NCBI GenBank assembly: GCA_017609745.1
Contig: JAFCDK010000038.1
Location: 1 to 6,473 of the forward strand
Direction of reading: 5' to 3'
Origin: Candidatus Pacearchaeota archaeon
Lineage (GTDB): Archaea; Nanobdellota; Nanobdellia; Pacearchaeales; GW2011-AR1
Length of the DNA stretch: 6,473 nt
Made by a program: the position numbers and the translations under genes. Positions 520 to 6,113 of this stretch are shown here, piece by piece (within the stretch, counting starts at the first letter, position 1; each line of letters opens with the position of its first letter). A model generated the notes under the pieces. The model searched no databases. It had not been told where the DNA came from and worked only from the letters and a program-made list of their open reading frames with translations.

Positions 520-789
520 CTATTTTATATCAGCACCCTCTTCTCTCAGCAATCTTCTTTTTATTTTTGAATTCATCTTTCCTTTGTATCCTCCAAGAGA
601 CCCATCACTTTTAATGACTCTATGACATGGAATTTTTATTGGATAAGGATTTTTCTTTAATGCTTGTCCTATTGCTCTTGGGGATGTTTTTAATTTTTCT
701 GCGATTGCTTTATATGTCGTTGTTTTTCCTTTTGGAACTTTTCTAACTTCTGCAAAAACTCTCTTTTGAAATTTTGTAATCTTTATCAT
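520..789 (-). CDS. ogt: Methylated-DNA--protein-cysteine methyltransferase (O6-alkylguanine-DNA alkyltransferase), minimal single-domain form
   Basis: The 89-aa product carries the canonical MGMT C-terminal domain pattern: TKFQKRVF..VPKGKTTTY..IA..L..SPRAIGQALKKNP.PI.IPCHRVI.SDGSLGGY. This includes the PCHRV active-site cysteine motif. The N-terminal Ogt/Ada domain is absent. Confidence 0.9.
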   Translation of the reverse strand: MIKITKFQKRVFAEVRKVPKGKTTTYKAIAEKLKTSPRAIGQALKKNPYPIKIPCHRVIKSDGSLGGYKGKMNSKIKRRLLREEGADIK

Positions 790-2022: not shown

Positions 2023-2310
2023 ATGAAAACAATTAAAGATTTGGAAGATAAATATGATTTAGAATTAAAGAGAATTATTTCTAAGATTAAAAAAAATAAG
2101 TCAAAATTAGTTTTATTACAATTTCCAGACGGACTTAAACCTTATGCAACTGCTGTTGTTGATTATCTTGAGGAAAAAACAGATTCTAATTTTTTAATCT
2201 GGTTTGGAGATTGTTTTGGTGCATGTGATACCCCTGTTGGTTTAGAAAATATAAAACCTAAAATAGATTTGGTTGTTCAATTTGGACATTCAGAAATGAT
2301 GCCAAAGTAA
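2023..2310 (+). CDS. dph2: Dph2 (2-(3-amino-3-carboxypropyl)histidine synthase, diphthamide biosynthesis) N-terminal fragment only; probable truncated remnant or pseudogene
   Basis: The 95-aa product matches the archaeal Dph2 N-terminus: L.LQFPDGL...A..V..YLEE......I.GD.CFGACD......I..DLVVQFGHSEM. Compare Pyrococcus Dph2 ..LIQSPEGL..YGACD..LIHLGHSYM. Full-length archaeal Dph2 is about 330-340 aa. Here the frame stops right after the GHS.M motif, and no continuation is visible in any frame before the next gene. Confidence 0.8.
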   Translation: MKTIKDLEDKYDLELKRIISKIKKNKSKLVLLQFPDGLKPYATAVVDYLEEKTDSNFLIWFGDCFGACDTPVGLENIKPKIDLVVQFGHSEMMPK

Positions 2311-2361
2311 TGTGTTTGATTATAATAATCTTTAAAAAGACTATTTTAGAGCATATAAATG

Positions 2362-2372
2362 TTTAAAAAAAA
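2362..2372 (+). promoter_or_regulatory. TATA-like box upstream of the PagL-like gene
   Basis: TTTAAAAAAAA lies 20-30 nt upstream of ATG 2392. This is the same architecture as other genes in the window, and there is no SD sequence. Confidence 0.3.
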
Positions 2373-2391: not shown

Positions 2392-3114
2392 ATGAGAAAA
2401 GGTATTTTTAGGGATGGATTATCCCTTCTTGCAAGTTTAATCTTTTTTGCTGGATGCACGACTTTTTCTAATCCTGTAACAAATACTCATAATCGTGTTT
2501 ATTTTAATGAAGGCAACAGACAAAATATTTGTGAAAGTTTTAAGAGAGAAAGAGCACCTGATGATAAAAAAACAAGAGAAAGCATTTTTAATGAGGATGA
2601 GTTTTCACTTCAAGCTATGGTAGGATATTTTTCTTCTTCAGCTTGTAGTATTGGTACAGATACTTCTGATTTCAGATATACACAATTAAATCTTCGTCTT
2701 GGAAGAATGATGGGGGATCCAATAAAAATAGGAGTTCTCCCCAAAGGTAATTTGGAAACATTAATTCAGGTTTCTAGTTCAAATTTTTCTAGAAACCCTG
2801 GAAATGATTCTATGGGAGTGGCTGTTTTACTTCGTTATAATATTGTTCAAGATAACTGGAAAATTGTTCCTTATATTCAAACTGGAGTAGGTATTATTCA
2901 TACAAATGTGCACAAAGATTATTCTCAACGTGCTATTGGACAATCAATAGAGTTTACTCCTCAAGTTAGTTTAGGTTTTCGTTACTTACTCAGTGAAAAT
3001 TGGTCCATTGATGCAGAGGGAATGTTTCATCATATTTCTAATGCTGGATTAGATGAAAGAAATGATGGTGTTAATTCTGTGGGGGTATTTGCTGGATTTA
3101 CTTATAATTTTTAG
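2392..3114 (+). CDS. Lipoprotein with an outer-membrane-type beta-barrel, PagL / acyloxyacyl hydrolase (lipid A deacylase)-like
   Basis: The N-terminus MRKGIFRDGLSLLASLIFFAG|C is a signal peptide plus lipobox. The body shows the alternating amphipathic pattern typical of beta-strands. HHISNAG...NDGVN near the C-terminus resembles the PagL-family His-x-Ser catalytic motif followed by N.G.N. The C-terminus ends ..GFTYNF, and a terminal aromatic Phe is the classic Gram-negative OMP signature. Confidence 0.65.
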   Translation: MRKGIFRDGLSLLASLIFFAGCTTFSNPVTNTHNRVYFNEGNRQNICESFKRERAPDDKKTRESIFNEDEFSLQAMVGYFSSSACSIGTDTSDFRYTQLNLRLGRMMGDPIKIGVLPKGNLETLIQVSSSNFSRNPGNDSMGVAVLLRYNIVQDNWKIVPYIQTGVGIIHTNVHKDYSQRAIGQSIEFTPQVSLGFRYLLSENWSIDAEGMFHHISNAGLDERNDGVNSVGVFAGFTYNF

Positions 3115-3120
3115 AATTTG

Positions 3121-3291
3121 TTATATCTTAATCAATCTAAATGTTGAAGTTGCAATTAACAAAAGCCCTATGATTCCTATTGTAATTCTTGTAGCTAATG
3201 GAAAAATTCCTAAAAACATAAAAACTACAGAAGTTAAAGTTAAAATAAGTCCTACTATGAACTGAATTAAGCTTAGTGTTTTTTTATTCAT
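3121..3291 (-). CDS. Small hydrophobic protein, 56 aa, two predicted TM helices (not in the supplied ORF track)
   Basis: Manual translation of the minus strand from ATG (3291..3289) to TAA (3123..3121) gives MNKKTLSLIQFIVGLILTLTSVVFMFLGIFPLATRITIGIIGLLLIATSTFRLIKI. It lies 43 nt downstream of ccdA on the same strand and fills an otherwise 220-nt gap. The hydrophobicity could partly be a composition artefact, because this strand is T-rich. Confidence 0.4.
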   Translation of the reverse strand: MNKKTLSLIQFIVGLILTLTSVVFMFLGIFPLATRITIGIIGLLLIATSTFRLIKI

Positions 3292-3334: not shown

Positions 3335-4039
3335 TTAAATCCAACCCATTAACAAAGCAAGTCCAACTAAGAACAATAAAATACCTGCGATTAAATGAAG
3401 CCTTCTGATATTTTTTTCTTTCCATCCTGAAACTTCGTCGACTTTTGCAAATCCATAATAAACTAATCCAATAATAATTAACATTGGCAAAATAAATAAC
3501 ATATTATAATATAAGAGCCAAGGAAGTGCTCCTAAAGTTCCTAATTCAGATAATAATCCTGAAGCGACTATATAAGGGCCAATAGTACATGGTAGTAAAA
3601 ATATAGTTACTAAAAAACCAATGATAAATGCCCCTGAAGGAGAGGTTATTTTTTGAATTATTCTTTTTACTTTTGGTCTCATAAACATAGGCATTTCTGT
3701 TACAAGCCCCCCTGGTTTGTATGTGAAATAATCTTTTAAATTTAATGCCCCAAGAATCATTGCTAAAATTGCTAATCCGTTATAGATAATTCCTGAATTT
3801 TCTCTTAATAATTCTGCAAATGTTTTGAAAAACTGTATTATAACAACCCCGTAAAATAAATACCCCAGATAAACAGATGCACTAAATGCTATACCTGCGT
3901 ATAGAACTTTTTTTCTTTTATCTGGATTTTGAATTAAAATAGCCATTAAAACCATTGTTAGAACTGCGATAGCACACGGATTAACAGAATCTGCTAATGC
4001 AAGTGTTGTTATTCTCCAAAAGTTTAATGTGTTTATCAT
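3335..4039 (-). CDS. ccdA: CcdA / DsbD_2-family transmembrane thiol-disulfide electron transporter
   Basis: Polytopic membrane protein of 234 aa. It has the two hallmark membrane-embedded cysteine motifs of the family: ADSVNPCAIAVL in TM1 and LLPCTIGPY in a later TM. Confidence 0.8.
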   Translation of the reverse strand: MINTLNFWRITTLALADSVNPCAIAVLTMVLMAILIQNPDKRKKVLYAGIAFSASVYLGYLFYGVVIIQFFKTFAELLRENSGIIYNGLAILAMILGALNLKDYFTYKPGGLVTEMPMFMRPKVKRIIQKITSPSGAFIIGFLVTIFLLPCTIGPYIVASGLLSELGTLGALPWLLYYNMLFILPMLIIIGLVYYGFAKVDEVSGWKEKNIRRLHLIAGILLFLVGLALLMGWI

Positions 4040-4050
4040 TTTTTATTTTT

Positions 4051-4070
4051 GTCTCGCGCTGACGCGCTCG
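4051..4070 (-). promoter_or_regulatory. GC-rich tandem direct repeat (CGCGCT x2 with 8-nt period) between a TATA-like box and the ccdA start codon; candidate operator or 5'-leader element
   Basis: gtctCGCGCTgaCGCGCTcg is the only markedly GC-rich stretch I saw in any intergenic region here. It lies 12-31 nt upstream of the ccdA ATG (4039) and downstream of TAAATATTTTA (4095-4105, minus sense). Confidence 0.3.
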
Positions 4071-4325: not shown

Positions 4326-4658
4326 TCAACACCCTGTAAGCTCTTTTAATTTTTCAATACTATAAACACCCACATGTTTTTCTCCATTTATAATCCATGT
4401 TGGGGTGTACTCAATCCCAGAGCATTTTTCTCTTTCAAACCAACAATCAATTATATTTAAATATTTTTTATTTTCTCCGAATTTTTCTTCTTGAGCTTGA
4501 CATGCTCTGCACCCAAGCTGACCATATAATTCTGAGTTTTGTCCAATACATTTCGCAGTCTCTTCTGAAGTTTCTGGATGTGGTTTGACTAGAACTATTA
4601 CAGATATTATTATCACTATTAAAATTACTAAAATTGTTATTAGGCTTCTTTTTTTCAT
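4326..4658 (-). CDS. Membrane-anchored thioredoxin-like protein (CxxC) resembling the Trx-like domain found fused to bacterial VKOR
   Basis: From ATG 4658 (the track starts at TTG 4676): MKKRSLITILVILIVIIISVIVLV is an N-terminal TM anchor. Then comes YGQLGCRACQAQEEKFG....IDC......KCSGIEYTPTWIINGEKHVGVYSIEKLKELTGC. This parallels the cyanobacterial VKOR Trx-like domain pattern YGA.WCPHCQ.QKELFG...VEC....C...GI.SYPTWIING..Y.GV.SLE.L. Confidence 0.75.
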   Translation of the reverse strand: MKKRSLITILVILIVIIISVIVLVKPHPETSEETAKCIGQNSELYGQLGCRACQAQEEKFGENKKYLNIIDCWFEREKCSGIEYTPTWIINGEKHVGVYSIEKLKELTGC

Positions 4659-4748
4659 AAAAAGAAAAATTAACAAATAGTTTTAAATGTTTTGATATAA
4701 TGATTGATGAATATAAAAACTTAAATAGTATTTATTATCTAAAATTTT

Positions 4749-5083: not shown

Positions 5084-5428
5084 TTAATAATCAGGTAAAT
5101 CTTGTTTTGGCTCTCCTGGTTTTTCTGTTTCAATTTCTTCTTCTTGTTTTTCTTCAGGTTTATCTTTTGTTAAAGTTTCTTGTCCAGGTTCTGGTTGTGT
5201 TTCTTGAACTTCTTCTTTCATATCTTCATCTGATATAGAATTAATCATCTCTTTGAATTTTTGAAAATCTTTTGCAGCTATTTTTACACCAGATTTTGTA
5301 AATCCTGTGTACCTATCACTTGTTATGAATTCTCTTATTGTAAGTCCTAATCTTCCGCCAAAATCGTCGATTCTGATTACAATATCTGCCATATCATTCT
5401 TATTTATTTTTCCAATGTCTTTTTCCAT
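5084..5428 (-). CDS. PC4/Sub1 (transcriptional coactivator p15)-like ssDNA-binding protein with an acidic, Pro/Glu/Lys-rich C-terminal tail
   Basis: IGKINKNDMADIVIRIDDFGGRLGLTIREFI......TKSGVKIAAKDFQKFKEMINSIS aligns by eye with the human PC4 core [24 protein letters not shown]......[22 protein letters not shown]. The last roughly 45 aa are low complexity (EEVQETQPEPGQET..KPEEKQEEEIETEKPGEPKQDLPDY). Confidence 0.7.
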   Translation of the reverse strand: MEKDIGKINKNDMADIVIRIDDFGGRLGLTIREFITSDRYTGFTKSGVKIAAKDFQKFKEMINSISDEDMKEEVQETQPEPGQETLTKDKPEEKQEEEIETEKPGEPKQDLPDY

Positions 5429-5804: not shown

Positions 5805-6113
5805 CTAATCCTTCATTTCAATTTTTATATTGACATTTTTTGGAATCTGCAGACGCATTATATTATGGAGAATTTTTTCATTTGCTGGCAAGTCAATAAG
5901 TCTTTTATGAATTCTCATTTCATATCTGTCAAATGTTGCTGTTCCGTCACCACAGGGAGATTTTCTTGTTGTTATTTTAAGTTTTTTTGTAGGTAGGGGT
6001 ACAGGCCCACCAATGACTATCCCTGATTTCTTGGCTATATTTTTAATAGTATCACAAATATCATTAAGCATTTTTATATTCGTGCTGTTTAATTTGATTC
6101 TTACTTTCGGCAT
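5805..6113 (-). CDS. rps10: 30S ribosomal protein uS10 (archaeal S10 / eukaryotic S20 type)
   Basis: MPKVRIKL.S.N...L......I...A...G....GP.PLPTKKLKITTRKSPCGDGTATFDRYEMRIHKRLIDL is the archaeal/eukaryotic uS10 pattern, including the RKSP.G.G..T.DR.E.R.HKRLID block. Bacterial S10 lacks this block. The track begins at TTG 6122. ATG 6113 gives the usual length of about 102 aa. Confidence 0.92.
   Translation of the reverse strand: MPKVRIKLNSTNIKMLNDICDTIKNIAKKSGIVIGGPVPLPTKKLKITTRKSPCGDGTATFDRYEMRIHKRLIDLPANEKILHNIMRLQIPKNVNIKIEMKD

What the first reader, a model, noticed from the sequence alone, without database searches (positions are those of the whole stretch)
2392..3114. Gram-negative-style outer-membrane beta-barrel lipoprotein (PagL / lipid A deacylase-like) in an apparently archaeal genome
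The ORF combines four features that belong to diderm bacterial envelope biology:
- a signal peptide with lipobox (LIFFAG|C);
- beta-barrel-like alternating sequence;
- a PagL-family-like HHISNAG...N.G.N motif;
- a C-terminal ..TYNF aromatic terminus, as recognised by the BAM machinery.

Its neighbours are archaeal-type genes (uS10 of the S20e type, Dph2). The gene carries the same TATA-box-at-about-minus-25, SD-less architecture and the same AT-rich composition as those neighbours, so it looks resident rather than a mis-binned fragment. Archaea are not known to have LPS, lipid A or BAM.

I see three possible explanations:
- an inter-domain transfer repurposed as a lipid or acyl esterase on the archaeal surface;
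- a protein aimed at a bacterial partner or prey envelope;
- a barrel inserted into an unusual envelope.

Any of these would be new biology.
Basis: partly seen in the sequence, partly recalled or inferred. Interest (0 to 1): 0.7.

Follow-up and report, generated by a model that had tools for sequence, protein, structure and literature searches.

The report
Bacterial outer-membrane PagL barrel in DPANN archaea
A small group of tiny symbiotic (DPANN) archaea, which are not known to have an outer membrane, carry and maintain a bacterial outer-membrane lipid A deacylase-type gene (PagL family), which suggests, but does not prove, that they act on the envelope of Gram-negative bacteria.

Summary
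ORF 2392-3114 encodes a 240-aa PagL-family protein: Pfam PF09411 scores 64 bits (cutoff 23), the AlphaFold model is a confident 8-stranded barrel, and the best PDB fold match is PagL 2ERV. His214 and Ser216 align with the catalytic His/Ser.

The contig is archaeal (archaeal-type uS10; nearest named relatives are Nanoarchaeota/Pacearchaeota). It is not a chimera. The same gene neighbourhood recurs in about seven independent assemblies at 48-100% protein identity, some of which also carry aIF5B and S6e. A second DPANN lineage has the gene next to GatE and type III RuBisCO.

The gene has host composition (GC3 0.16, against 0.53-0.69 in bacterial homologues) and the host's TATA-box, SD-less promoter layout. 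The archaeal copies form one clade inside a Desulfobacterota-dominated family, so one old bacteria-to-archaea transfer is likely.

It is the fastest-evolving gene in its cluster (dN/dS 0.4-1.4, against 0.1-0.2 for the adjacent DsbD-like gene), yet it stays open. One copy is a pseudogene.

The function is inferred only. The most likely role is an exported, in this lineage possibly lipid-tethered, esterase barrel acting on a bacterial partner's outer membrane. The lipobox is lineage-specific, and "Dph2" is only a conserved 95-aa fragment.

The parts
2353..2372 (+). Promoter region: ATATAAA (2353-2359) plus a TTTAAAAAAAA box (2362-2372) starting 30 nt before the ATG. No Shine-Dalgarno motif.
   Evidence: The same box at the same distance is found in 23 of 29 genes of the window, L005 and L090. 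It is conserved upstream of the PagL orthologues in L001, L002, L074 and L003.
2392..3114 (+). PagL-family outer-membrane-type beta-barrel gene, 240 aa plus stop.
   Evidence: Identical protein P0001 is on record from NCBI and JGI on a 6473-bp contig.
2392..2457 (+). Signal peptide, residues 1-22, ending in the lipobox-like FAG|C (Cys22, codon 2455-2457).
   Evidence: Basic n-region plus a 12-residue hydrophobic core. AF2 predicts a helix at residues 4-25. The Cys is conserved only in P0001 and P0002.
2458..2598 (+). Charged, low-confidence linker, residues 23-69.
   Evidence: pLDDT is 45-61 and below 50 for residues 26-39. It aligns only with archaeal-clade members and is longer than in bacterial homologues.
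2599..3111 (+). Eight-stranded beta-barrel, residues 70-240. Strands: 71-81, 95-106, 116-132, 139-151, 158-171, 191-199, 204-216, 227-239.
   Evidence: AF2 pLDDT is mostly above 90. Foldseek top hit is 2ERV. The alternating hydrophobic face is retained, with r=0.91 against bacterial homologues.
2644..2646 (+). Cys85, in the loop between strands 1 and 2. Invariant in the archaeal clade and absent from the bacterial homologues aligned.
3031..3039 (+). Catalytic motif His214-Ile215-Ser216 at the end of strand 7.
   Evidence: Aligns to H126/S128 of 2ERV. H214 and S216 are invariant in 85 homologues. His and Ser are essential in Salmonella PagL (PMC4958258).
3073..3075 (+). Asn228, at the position of the third triad residue (Glu140) of P. 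aeruginosa PagL.
   Evidence: Pairwise alignment. Asn is invariant or nearly so in this subfamily, bacterial members included.
2023..2310 (+). Conserved upstream partner: a stand-alone 95-aa Dph2 N-terminal-domain gene ('Dph2N').
   Evidence: It covers TIGR00322 positions 1-84 of 320. It lies directly upstream of PagL in L005, L001, L074 and L090. dN/dS is 0.2-0.33.
3335..4039 (-). Syntenic neighbour: a DsbD/CcdA-like (SfLAP/DsbD_2) membrane protein.
   Evidence: The Pfam hits are weak. It lies beside or near PagL in L005, L001, L028, L072, L074, L097 and L090.
4326..4676 (-). Syntenic neighbour: a membrane-anchored thioredoxin-like protein with a CxxC motif.
5805..6113 (-). Host marker: archaeal-type ribosomal protein uS10 on the same contig.
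   Evidence: TIGR01046 scores 142.7 bits. The best named relatives are Nanoarchaeota at 86-90% and Ca. Pacearchaeota at 85%.

Best explanation
SHOWN. The ORF is an intact PagL-family 8-stranded outer-membrane-type beta-barrel esterase. It retains the catalytic His-x-Ser and a lipid-facing hydrophobic surface. It is encoded in the chromosome of an AT-rich DPANN archaeon of the Nanoarchaeota/Pacearchaeota radiation. It is a xenologue. The archaeal copies form one clade nested in a family otherwise found in Desulfobacterota, Verrucomicrobiota and other diderm bacteria. Since the transfer the gene has been inherited within the archaeal clade with conserved neighbours, fully ameliorated in composition, and fitted with a native archaeal promoter and an N-terminal export signal.

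INFERRED. The protein is exported through Sec. In the window's lineage it is possibly lipid-anchored at Cys22 and held on a roughly 45-residue flexible linker. In sister lineages it is probably released by signal peptidase I. The archaeon has no known outer membrane, BAM or lipid A, and archaeal ether lipids offer no ester bond. The barrel therefore most plausibly inserts spontaneously into the outer membrane of a neighbouring or host diderm bacterium, as small 8-stranded barrels can do in vitro. There it would hydrolyse ester-linked acyl chains of lipid A or a related glycolipid. In Salmonella, PagL-mediated lipid A deacylation increases outer-membrane vesicle production, and the authors propose that it destabilises and bends the membrane. 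An attached archaeon could exploit such an effect for adhesion, access or scavenging.

The rapid amino-acid evolution with a maintained open frame and an occasional loss fits an accessory, partner-facing surface effector.
For: Identity:
- Pfam PagL 64.4 bits.
- 2ERV is the best PDB match by sequence and by fold.
- The AF2 barrel has pLDDT 86.
- H214 and S216 are invariant in 85 homologues.
- The hydrophobic alternation is retained.

Archaeal residence:
- Archaeal uS10, with Nanoarchaeota/Pacearchaeota as the nearest named relatives.
- Synteny in L005, L001/L002/L072, L028, L074, L097 and L090.
- S6e and aIF5B on L090.
- GatE and type III RuBisCO next to the homologue in Nanoarchaeota MAG L006.
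- GC3 of 0.158 matches the neighbours.
- Shared TATA-like box and no SD.

Single origin:
- The archaeal clade has NJ bootstrap 68, with subclades at 98 and 83, among Desulfobacterota and Verrucomicrobiota sequences.

Selection:
- dN/dS is 0.36-1.36, against 0.09-0.20 for the adjacent DsbD-like gene (Fisher p=4e-11).
- The frame has only about a 0.001 chance of staying open under neutral drift.

Context from the literature:
- Woesearchaeota and Pacearchaeota carry bacterial-type murein transglycosylases, and bacterial hosts are an open question (PMC8204110; PMC9723730).
- PagL-mediated deacylation increases OMV production; the authors propose it bends and destabilises the outer membrane (PMC4958258).
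Against: - No activity, localisation or partner has been observed. The target is pure inference.
- dN/dS near 1 for the window-L001 pair is statistically indistinguishable from neutrality (binomial p=0.25; by region).
- One orthologue is a pseudogene (L090) and one carries a frameshift (L006), so the gene is dispensable.
- The third triad residue of P. aeruginosa PagL (Glu140) is Asn here, so the chemistry or substrate may differ, although the same holds for the bacterial subfamily members.
- Known DPANN hosts are archaea (my own knowledge).
- Spontaneous insertion of a barrel into a foreign LPS-containing outer membrane in vivo is not established.
- Only about 6.5-38 kb of each genome was visible, so a BamA-like gene or an unusual envelope cannot be excluded.
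Confidence: 0.5

Rival explanations
1. Functionless relic. The gene was acquired from bacteria and is drifting neutrally towards loss; it is not used.
For: dN/dS is 1.36 for window against L001 and is not distinguishable from neutrality. There is a pseudogene in L090 and a frameshift in L006. dN/dS is elevated in all pairs.
Against: The frame would remain stop-free in only about 0.1% of neutral simulations. Intact copies exist in at least eight diverged lineages at 44-64% identity. The catalytic His/Ser and about 50 other positions are invariant within the clade. The lipid-facing pattern is retained. The promoter box is conserved. Deeper pairs give dN/dS of 0.36-0.68, below 1.
Confidence: 0.17
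2. Own-envelope protein. These archaea have an unrecognised second membrane or diderm-like envelope, and the barrel sits there.
For: The barrel keeps a membrane-embedded surface and a C-terminal aromatic residue. It is consistently linked to an extracytoplasmic thiol-redox pair, DsbD-like plus Trx-like, which would suit a periplasm-like compartment.
Against: No Omp85/BamA, Lpt, Lol or other outer-membrane protein gene appears in any of the roughly 60 kb of archaeal contigs examined, though this is far from whole genomes. The gene is patchy and dispensable. One barrel family alone does not make an outer membrane.
Confidence: 0.1
3. Lipid scavenging or remodelling. The esterase acts on ester-linked lipids that the lipid-auxotrophic archaeon takes from its surroundings or host, not specifically on lipid A in a living partner's outer membrane.
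For: The catalytic pair is conserved. Asn replaces the Glu of the classical triad, hinting at an altered substrate. In L097 an alpha/beta serine hydrolase lies in the same-strand cluster. DPANN generally lack lipid biosynthesis (my own knowledge).
Against: The Asn is shared with the bacterial subfamily, so it is not an archaeal adaptation. A membrane-embedded barrel needs a bilayer to sit in. No supporting transport or beta-oxidation genes were seen nearby.
Confidence: 0.15
4. Artefact. A bacterial fragment was mis-assembled or mis-binned into an archaeal contig.
For: The upstream Dph2 gene is truncated exactly before the PagL gene, which at first sight looks like a breakpoint.
Against: The same truncated Dph2N-to-PagL junction and the same downstream junction occur in independent assemblies from different samples and at different divergence. 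GC3 and codon usage equal those of the neighbours. The promoter architecture is native.
Confidence: 0.02

Closest known systems
PagL, lipid A 3-O-deacylase of Pseudomonas aeruginosa (PDB 2ERV) and Salmonella
   Same: Same Pfam family (PF09411). It is the best PDB match by both sequence and fold. Both are 8-stranded barrels with a His-x-Ser catalytic pair at the end of a strand next to the last loop.
   Different: Only about 20% identity. There is an extra N-terminal linker of about 45 residues. Asn sits at the position of Glu140. The lipobox-like Cys22 and a clade-specific Cys85 are not PagL features. The host is an archaeon without known lipid A or an outer membrane.
PagL-family 'acyloxyacyl hydrolase' proteins of Desulfobacterota (Desulfobacteraceae, Ca. 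Desulfacyla, Desulfatiglandales) and Verrucomicrobiota
   Same: These are the closest sequences outside the archaeal clade, at 44-53% identity over the whole barrel. They have the same invariant residues, including Asn228, and the same strand pattern.
   Different: They come from diderm bacteria with GC3 of 0.53-0.69. They have shorter N-termini, no Cys85, and many carry a few residues after the terminal Phe. None has been characterised biochemically as far as I know.
Bacterial-type lytic murein transglycosylases of Woesearchaeota and Pacearchaeota (Castelle et al. 2021, PMC8204110; Vigneron et al. 2022, PMC9723730)
   Same: They follow the same logic: enzymes whose only known substrate is a bacterial envelope polymer, acquired by DPANN archaea and read as tools for attaching to or attacking bacteria.
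   Different: They are a different fold, target and location: large soluble or anchored glycosidases acting on peptidoglycan. Neither paper mentions PagL, lipid A or outer-membrane barrels.
Small 8-stranded outer-membrane barrels OmpW, OmpA-TM, OmpX, NspA and PorG
   Same: Same architecture; Foldseek probability 1.0. There are weak HMM hits to OMP_b-brl and T9SS PorG.
   Different: These lack the His-x-Ser esterase motif. All HMM scores to them are below the curated cutoffs.

Membership tests
PagL / lipid A 3-O-deacylase family (Pfam PF09411) | Significant match to the family HMM above the curated threshold | tested here: met
   64.4 bits against a cutoff of 23, E=1.5e-17, residues 119-236 on profile positions 24-135 of 136.
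PagL / lipid A 3-O-deacylase family (Pfam PF09411) | Eight-stranded antiparallel beta-barrel | tested here: met
   Predicted, not solved. The AF2 model has pLDDT 86.1 and 8 strands. 2ERV is the top Foldseek hit, E=7.5e-7, TM 0.66 on the target.
PagL / lipid A 3-O-deacylase family (Pfam PF09411) | Catalytic His and Ser (H126/S128 in P. aeruginosa; H163/S165 in Salmonella, essential per PMC4958258) | tested here: met
   H214 and S216 align to H126 and S128 and are invariant in 85 homologues.
PagL / lipid A 3-O-deacylase family (Pfam PF09411) | Acidic third member of the triad (Glu140 in P. aeruginosa PagL; from my own knowledge of Rutten et al. 2006, a paper not held here) | tested here: not met
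   Asn228 aligns with E140. Asn is invariant or nearly so across this subfamily, including its bacterial members. This is therefore a subfamily trait, not an archaeal one.
PagL / lipid A 3-O-deacylase family (Pfam PF09411) | Removes the 3-O-linked acyl chain of lipid A | not testable with these tools
   This needs recombinant enzyme and lipid A mass spectrometry.
PagL / lipid A 3-O-deacylase family (Pfam PF09411) | Encoded by a diderm bacterium that makes lipid A, and located in its outer membrane | tested here: not met
   The host contigs carry archaeal uS10, S6e, aIF5B and GatE. No Lpx, Lpt or Bam genes were seen on the contigs available.
BAM-dependent outer-membrane beta-barrel proteins | C-terminal beta-signal ending in an aromatic residue, and a lipid-facing hydrophobic belt | tested here: met
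   The protein ends ...GFTYNF. The archaeal AT-rich clade mostly ends exactly at Phe. The alternating hydrophobic face is retained. The last strand is structural anyway, so this is not evidence for BAM.
BAM-dependent outer-membrane beta-barrel proteins | Omp85/BamA insertase present in the same genome | not testable with these tools
   Only 6.5-38 kb contigs were available.
Lipobox lipoproteins | [LVI][ASTVI][GAS]C lipobox directly after the hydrophobic core of a signal peptide | tested here: inconclusive
   The sequence is F-A-G-C (Phe at -3 is atypical) after a good h-region. The Cys is present only in P0001/P0089 and P0002. Other clade members have Ser, Tyr or Val there and a ...PVYA| site instead.
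Lipobox lipoproteins | Lipoprotein-processing enzymes (Lgt/Lsp or archaeal equivalents) in the genome | not testable with these tools
   The genome is not available.
DPANN archaea (GTDB Nanoarchaeota: Pacearchaeota/Woesearchaeota radiation) as host | Archaeal information-processing genes on the same or syntenic contigs, with nearest relatives in that group | tested here: met
   uS10_euk_arch scores 142.7 bits. The best named uS10 relatives are Nanoarchaeota archaeon (86-90%) and Ca. Pacearchaeota (85%). S6e and aIF5B are on L090. L006 is deposited as a Nanoarchaeota MAG carrying GatE_arch.

The most novel reading that the evidence does not exclude
A clade of Pacearchaeota/Woesearchaeota-like DPANN archaea deploys a BAM-independent, self-inserting outer-membrane barrel enzyme, tethered to the archaeal cell in some lineages and released in others, into the outer membrane of diderm bacteria such as the Desulfobacterota it was taken from. 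There it deacylates lipid A to loosen or vesiculate the host envelope. This would be the first molecular handle on archaea that parasitise or prey on Gram-negative bacteria, and the first trans-kingdom outer-membrane barrel effector. The rapid amino-acid turnover of the gene would then reflect an arms race with the partner's surface.
Probability: 0.3. Interest if true: 0.85.

Novelty: new variant of a known kind. Interest (0 to 1): 0.65.

Why it matters
Transmembrane beta-barrels of the outer-membrane type are treated as a signature of diderm bacteria and their organelle descendants, and lipid A has no counterpart in archaea. This gene is a stably inherited, promoter-adapted, open PagL-family barrel in archaea with no known outer membrane. 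That is hard to explain unless the protein works on someone else's membrane, or unless these archaea have an unrecognised envelope.

Whether DPANN archaea have bacterial hosts is an explicitly open question (PMC8204110). This gene gives a concrete, clonable probe for it. Three experiments follow directly:
- test the activity on LPS;
- test insertion into LPS membranes;
- look for co-localisation with Desulfobacterota-like bacteria.

The gene also adds an outer-membrane-directed activity to the peptidoglycan-directed enzymes already known from the same archaeal groups.

Tried and rejected
- Exact look-up of the window's own protein found no gene record. Context came instead from the cluster member P0089.
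- There are no tRNAs and no Rfam families in the window.
- Metagenome hits L088/L089, with 65% identity in the best segment, looked like close archaeal relatives. They are bacterial (47% GC, OmpA-family neighbour) and have a broken ORF.
- I tested for positive selection by region (signal plus linker, barrel, conserved blocks). Omega is 1.1-1.5 everywhere and never significantly above neutral, so I do not claim positive selection.
- I looked for a sharp recombination tract to explain the low dS of PagL between the window and L001. There is only a diffuse island of higher identity, about 0.83 against 0.75. Recent exchange remains a hypothesis.
- I considered a diversity-generating retroelement as the source of the amino-acid turnover. 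I rejected it because the differences are spread over the whole gene rather than confined to a short C-terminal variable region (inference).
- The Rutten et al. 2006 PagL structure paper is not held, and no held paper states Glu140 for PagL. The triad's third residue therefore rests on my own knowledge plus the 2ERV alignment.
- Literature searches for PagL, lipid A deacylase or outer-membrane barrels in archaea or DPANN found no prior report. The library does not cover subscription journals.
Full report
**1. The observation**

The window contains a 240-aa ATG ORF at 2392-3114 on the + strand. Its product is on record, identical, from NCBI and JGI on a contig of exactly 6473 bases, so the window is a whole contig.

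Four lines of evidence identify the protein:
- Pfam assigns it to PagL (PF09411) with 64.4 bits against a gathering score of 23. Sub-threshold hits to OMP_b-brl and other barrel families follow.
- NCBIfam gives only weak barrel hits, to PorG and OmpW.
- A sequence search of the PDB finds a single entry, the PagL crystal structure 2ERV (E=2.6e-5). The window's HHISNAG aligns on H126-Y-S128.
- AlphaFold2 with an 85-sequence alignment gives a confident model: mean pLDDT 86, above 90 through residues 70-240, with eight strands. The model also has an N-terminal helix (residues 4-25) and a low-confidence linker (residues 26-69). Foldseek against the PDB ranks 2ERV first, then OmpW, OmpA, NspA and OmpX.

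H214 and S216 are invariant in all 85 homologues. These two residues are the ones shown to be essential in Salmonella PagL (PMC4958258). The position of the third triad residue of P. aeruginosa PagL (Glu140, from my own knowledge) is Asn228 here. That Asn is shared by the bacterial members of this subfamily.

The strands keep the alternating hydrophobic and polar pattern of a membrane-embedded barrel. Per-column hydropathy of archaeal against bacterial members correlates at r=0.91.

**2. Is the host archaeal, and is the gene resident?**

The window's uS10 matches the archaeal/eukaryotic equivalog (142.7 bits, cutoff 96). Its closest named relatives are 'Nanoarchaeota archaeon' (86-90% identity) and 'Candidatus Pacearchaeota archaeon' (85%).

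The upstream 'Dph2' is only 95 aa and covers positions 1-84 of the 320-position Dph1/Dph2 domain model. That looked like a possible chimera breakpoint, but the arrangement is reproduced in independent assemblies:
- L005 (JGI 3300033148, a 38-kb contig) is 98.6% identical in DNA and collinear.
- L001/L002 (two Logan runs) and L072 carry a 63-64% identical protein. L001 has the order Dph2N → PagL → DsbD-like(-) → Trx-like(-). L072 has PagL → DsbD-like(-) → Trx-like(-). L002 shows PagL plus one uncharacterised minus-strand gene.
- L028 and L074 show the same order with 48-52% and 44% identical proteins.
- L097 has the same genes rearranged on one strand.
- L090 (a 37-kb contig, 30% GC) has Dph2N → PagL next to aIF5B and ribosomal protein S6e, both archaeal markers, plus homologues of three other window genes.

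A compositionally different DPANN lineage (L006, 43% GC) is deposited as a Nanoarchaeota MAG. It has a homologue beside archaeal GatE (425 bits), type III RuBisCO and ribose-1,5-bisphosphate isomerase.

Composition and expression signals match the host:
- PagL GC3 is 0.158, within its neighbours' range of 0.11-0.26, against 0.53-0.69 for bacterial homologues. Its codon usage is as typical of the window as that of any neighbour.
- A TTTAAA-type box starts 30 nt upstream of the ATG (2362-2372).
- Such boxes are enriched in the -30..-21 bin (37 against 5-9 in other bins). They are present in 23 of 29 genes of the window, L005 and L090, and are conserved upstream of the PagL orthologues.
- Shine-Dalgarno-like motifs are rare, in 4 of 29 genes.

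Chimera and mis-binning are therefore rejected.

**3. Origin**

Among 88 database homologues and 21 GTDB-genome loci, every named carrier other than L006 is a diderm bacterium. Most are Desulfobacteraceae, Ca. Desulfacyla and Desulfatiglandales, with some Verrucomicrobiota and one Blastochloris.

In a neighbour-joining tree of the barrel region, the archaeal-type sequences form one clade with bootstrap 68. Its two subclades have support of 98 (the AT-rich group including the window) and 83 (the L006 group). The clade is nested among the bacterial sequences, and its sister group is unresolved.

One ancient bacteria-to-DPANN transfer followed by vertical descent is the simplest reading. The donor was probably a Desulfobacterota-like organism, but this is not resolved. 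Not every member of the clade has independent archaeal markers on its contig. L003 and L098 are assigned by phylogeny and composition only.

**4. How it evolves**

This was unexpected. Between the window and L001, 87 codons differ in amino acid and only 10 differ synonymously.
- For PagL, dS=0.148, dN=0.201 and dN/dS=1.36.
- The three flanking genes have dS of 0.8-1.3 and dN/dS of 0.13-0.33.
- The Fisher test for PagL against DsbD-like gives p=4e-11.
- In all other pairs PagL has dN/dS of 0.36-0.68, against 0.09-0.20 for the adjacent DsbD-like gene and 0.20-0.33 for Dph2N.

The ratio is not significantly above the neutral expectation, either overall (p=0.25) or in any region. I therefore do not claim positive selection. 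However, only 0.12% of simulated neutral histories with that many substitutions leave the frame open. The catalytic blocks also stay conserved.

The low dS of this pair relative to the flanks suggests a recent exchange of the PagL allele between lineages, but there is no sharp tract boundary.

The gene is dispensable. The L090 copy has an in-frame stop and a frameshift, although the near-identical P0004/L028 version is intact. The L006 copy has a frameshift at a G-run, while P0005 is intact.

Taken together, this is an accessory, fast-evolving, but maintained surface protein.

**5. Export signals**

The N-terminus has a basic n-region, a 12-residue hydrophobic core and FAG|C. That Cys exists only in the window/L005 and L001/L002 lineages. 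The other clade members have Ser, Tyr or Val at that position and a ...PVYA| motif typical of signal peptidase I.

'Lipoprotein' is therefore at best a recent, lineage-specific switch from a released form to a tethered form.

All archaeal-clade members share a Cys (Cys85) in the first loop that the bacterial homologues lack. PagL lies beside or near a DsbD/CcdA-like membrane protein and a membrane-anchored thioredoxin-like protein in most of these lineages. A functional link is possible but untested.

**6. Mechanism (inferred)**

Archaea make ether lipids and are not known to have lipid A, an outer membrane or BAM (established knowledge). The protein keeps both a membrane-embedded surface and an esterase centre. 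The most economical model is an exported barrel that inserts into the outer membrane of a diderm bacterium in contact with the archaeon and removes ester-linked acyl chains from lipid A or a similar lipid.

In Salmonella, PagL expression increases outer-membrane vesicle production and enriches deacylated lipid A in the vesicles. The authors propose that deacylated lipid A destabilises and bends the membrane (PMC4958258).

The same archaeal groups are already known to carry bacterial-type murein transglycosylases, which have been read as tools for attaching to or lysing bacteria. Whether DPANN have bacterial hosts is stated to be an open question (PMC8204110; PMC9723730).

I put about 0.5 on this model. 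Smaller weights go to a drifting relic (0.17), scavenged-lipid remodelling (0.15), an unrecognised own outer membrane (0.10) and artefact (0.02).

**7. Comparison and novelty**

By HMM, fold and catalytic pair this is a PagL-family member. It fails two of the family's usual attributes: the acidic triad residue, which is a subfamily trait, and a lipid A-making diderm host.

I found no report of PagL, lipid A deacylases or outer-membrane-type barrels in archaea in the held literature. That library omits most subscription journals.

I classify it as a new variant of a known kind: a known enzyme family established in a host where its canonical substrate and membrane do not exist. Interest is 0.65. 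The finding would surprise envelope and DPANN specialists and offers a testable handle on archaeon-bacterium interactions. Its function is still entirely inferred, and the gene may be only weakly constrained.

Noticed in passing
window 2023-2310 (+); also L005 1888-2175, L001 629-964, L074 341-634, L090 9694-9990: This is a stand-alone gene of 95-111 aa encoding only the first domain of Dph2, with the GDCFGACD cysteine motif and ending just after QFGH. It is conserved directly upstream of PagL in five lineages with dN/dS of 0.2-0.33, so it is a maintained mini-protein and not a truncation artefact. Whether the rest of Dph2 is encoded elsewhere (a split gene) is unknown.
   Followed up: partly
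window 2392-3114 vs L001 1064-1795: Synonymous divergence of PagL (dS 0.15) is 5-9 times lower than that of the flanking genes (0.8-1.3), although amino-acid divergence is similar. The DNA identity profile shows only a diffuse island. Recent allele exchange between lineages is a possible cause but is unproven.
   Followed up: partly
window 2644-2646 (Cys85), 3335-4039 (-), 4326-4676 (-): A single loop cysteine is invariant in the archaeal PagL clade and absent from the bacterial homologues. The gene is persistently linked to a DsbD/CcdA-like membrane protein and a membrane-anchored CxxC thioredoxin-like protein, through several rearrangements (L028, L072, L074, L090, L097).
   Followed up: partly
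L090 9995-10704: The PagL orthologue in this 37-kb archaeal contig is a pseudogene, with a stop after about residue 55 and a frameshift near 10468. The near-identical allele (P0004 / L028) is intact elsewhere.
   Followed up: yes
L006 6247-6918 and 6905-6950: The PagL homologue of the Nanoarchaeota MAG is cut short by a frameshift at a GGGG run. The next frame encodes the missing GFIGFTYFFDKPKK, identical to the intact P0005. It could be a sequencing error or a real inactivation.
   Followed up: partly
window 4053-4069 (-): The GC-rich 17-mer GAGCGCGTCAGCGCGAG (a mirror-like repeat around TCA) lies just upstream of the DsbD-like start codon in a 28% GC contig. None of 200 shuffles contained it. 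It is present only in the window and in the same-species L005, not in the other syntenic loci.
   Followed up: partly
window 520-789 (-): The O6-methylguanine-DNA methyltransferase gene is only 89 aa. It consists of the C-terminal PF01035 domain with the PCHRV active site and has no N-terminal domain.
   Followed up: no
window 3121-3291 (-) and 3053-3265 (+): The PagL/DsbD-like intergenic space holds a 56-aa two-helix membrane ORF on the minus strand. It overlaps a 70-aa plus-strand ORF that the JGI gene caller chose in L005. This stretch is largely absent from L001 (alignment gaps at 3161-3280).
   Followed up: no
L090 2365-3456 (-): A secreted cysteine-rich 363-aa protein with a thrombospondin type 1 repeat (Pfam TSP_1, 40.8 bits) is encoded in the archaeal contig. 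This is an adhesion-type domain that is unusual for archaea.
   Followed up: no
window 5084-5428 (-); L090 6057-6395; L097 1-294: A conserved protein of about 112 aa (MEKDIGKI...IRIDDFGGR..., acidic tail ending in PDY) has only a weak DUF3276 hit. It travels with the PagL/Trx/DsbD neighbourhood in several lineages.
   Followed up: no
protein P0217 (uS10 homologue): An archaeal-type uS10 that is 85% identical to the window's is deposited as 'Minisyncoccales bacterium', a CPR lineage. The most likely cause is a mis-binned DPANN contig in a CPR MAG.
   Followed up: no
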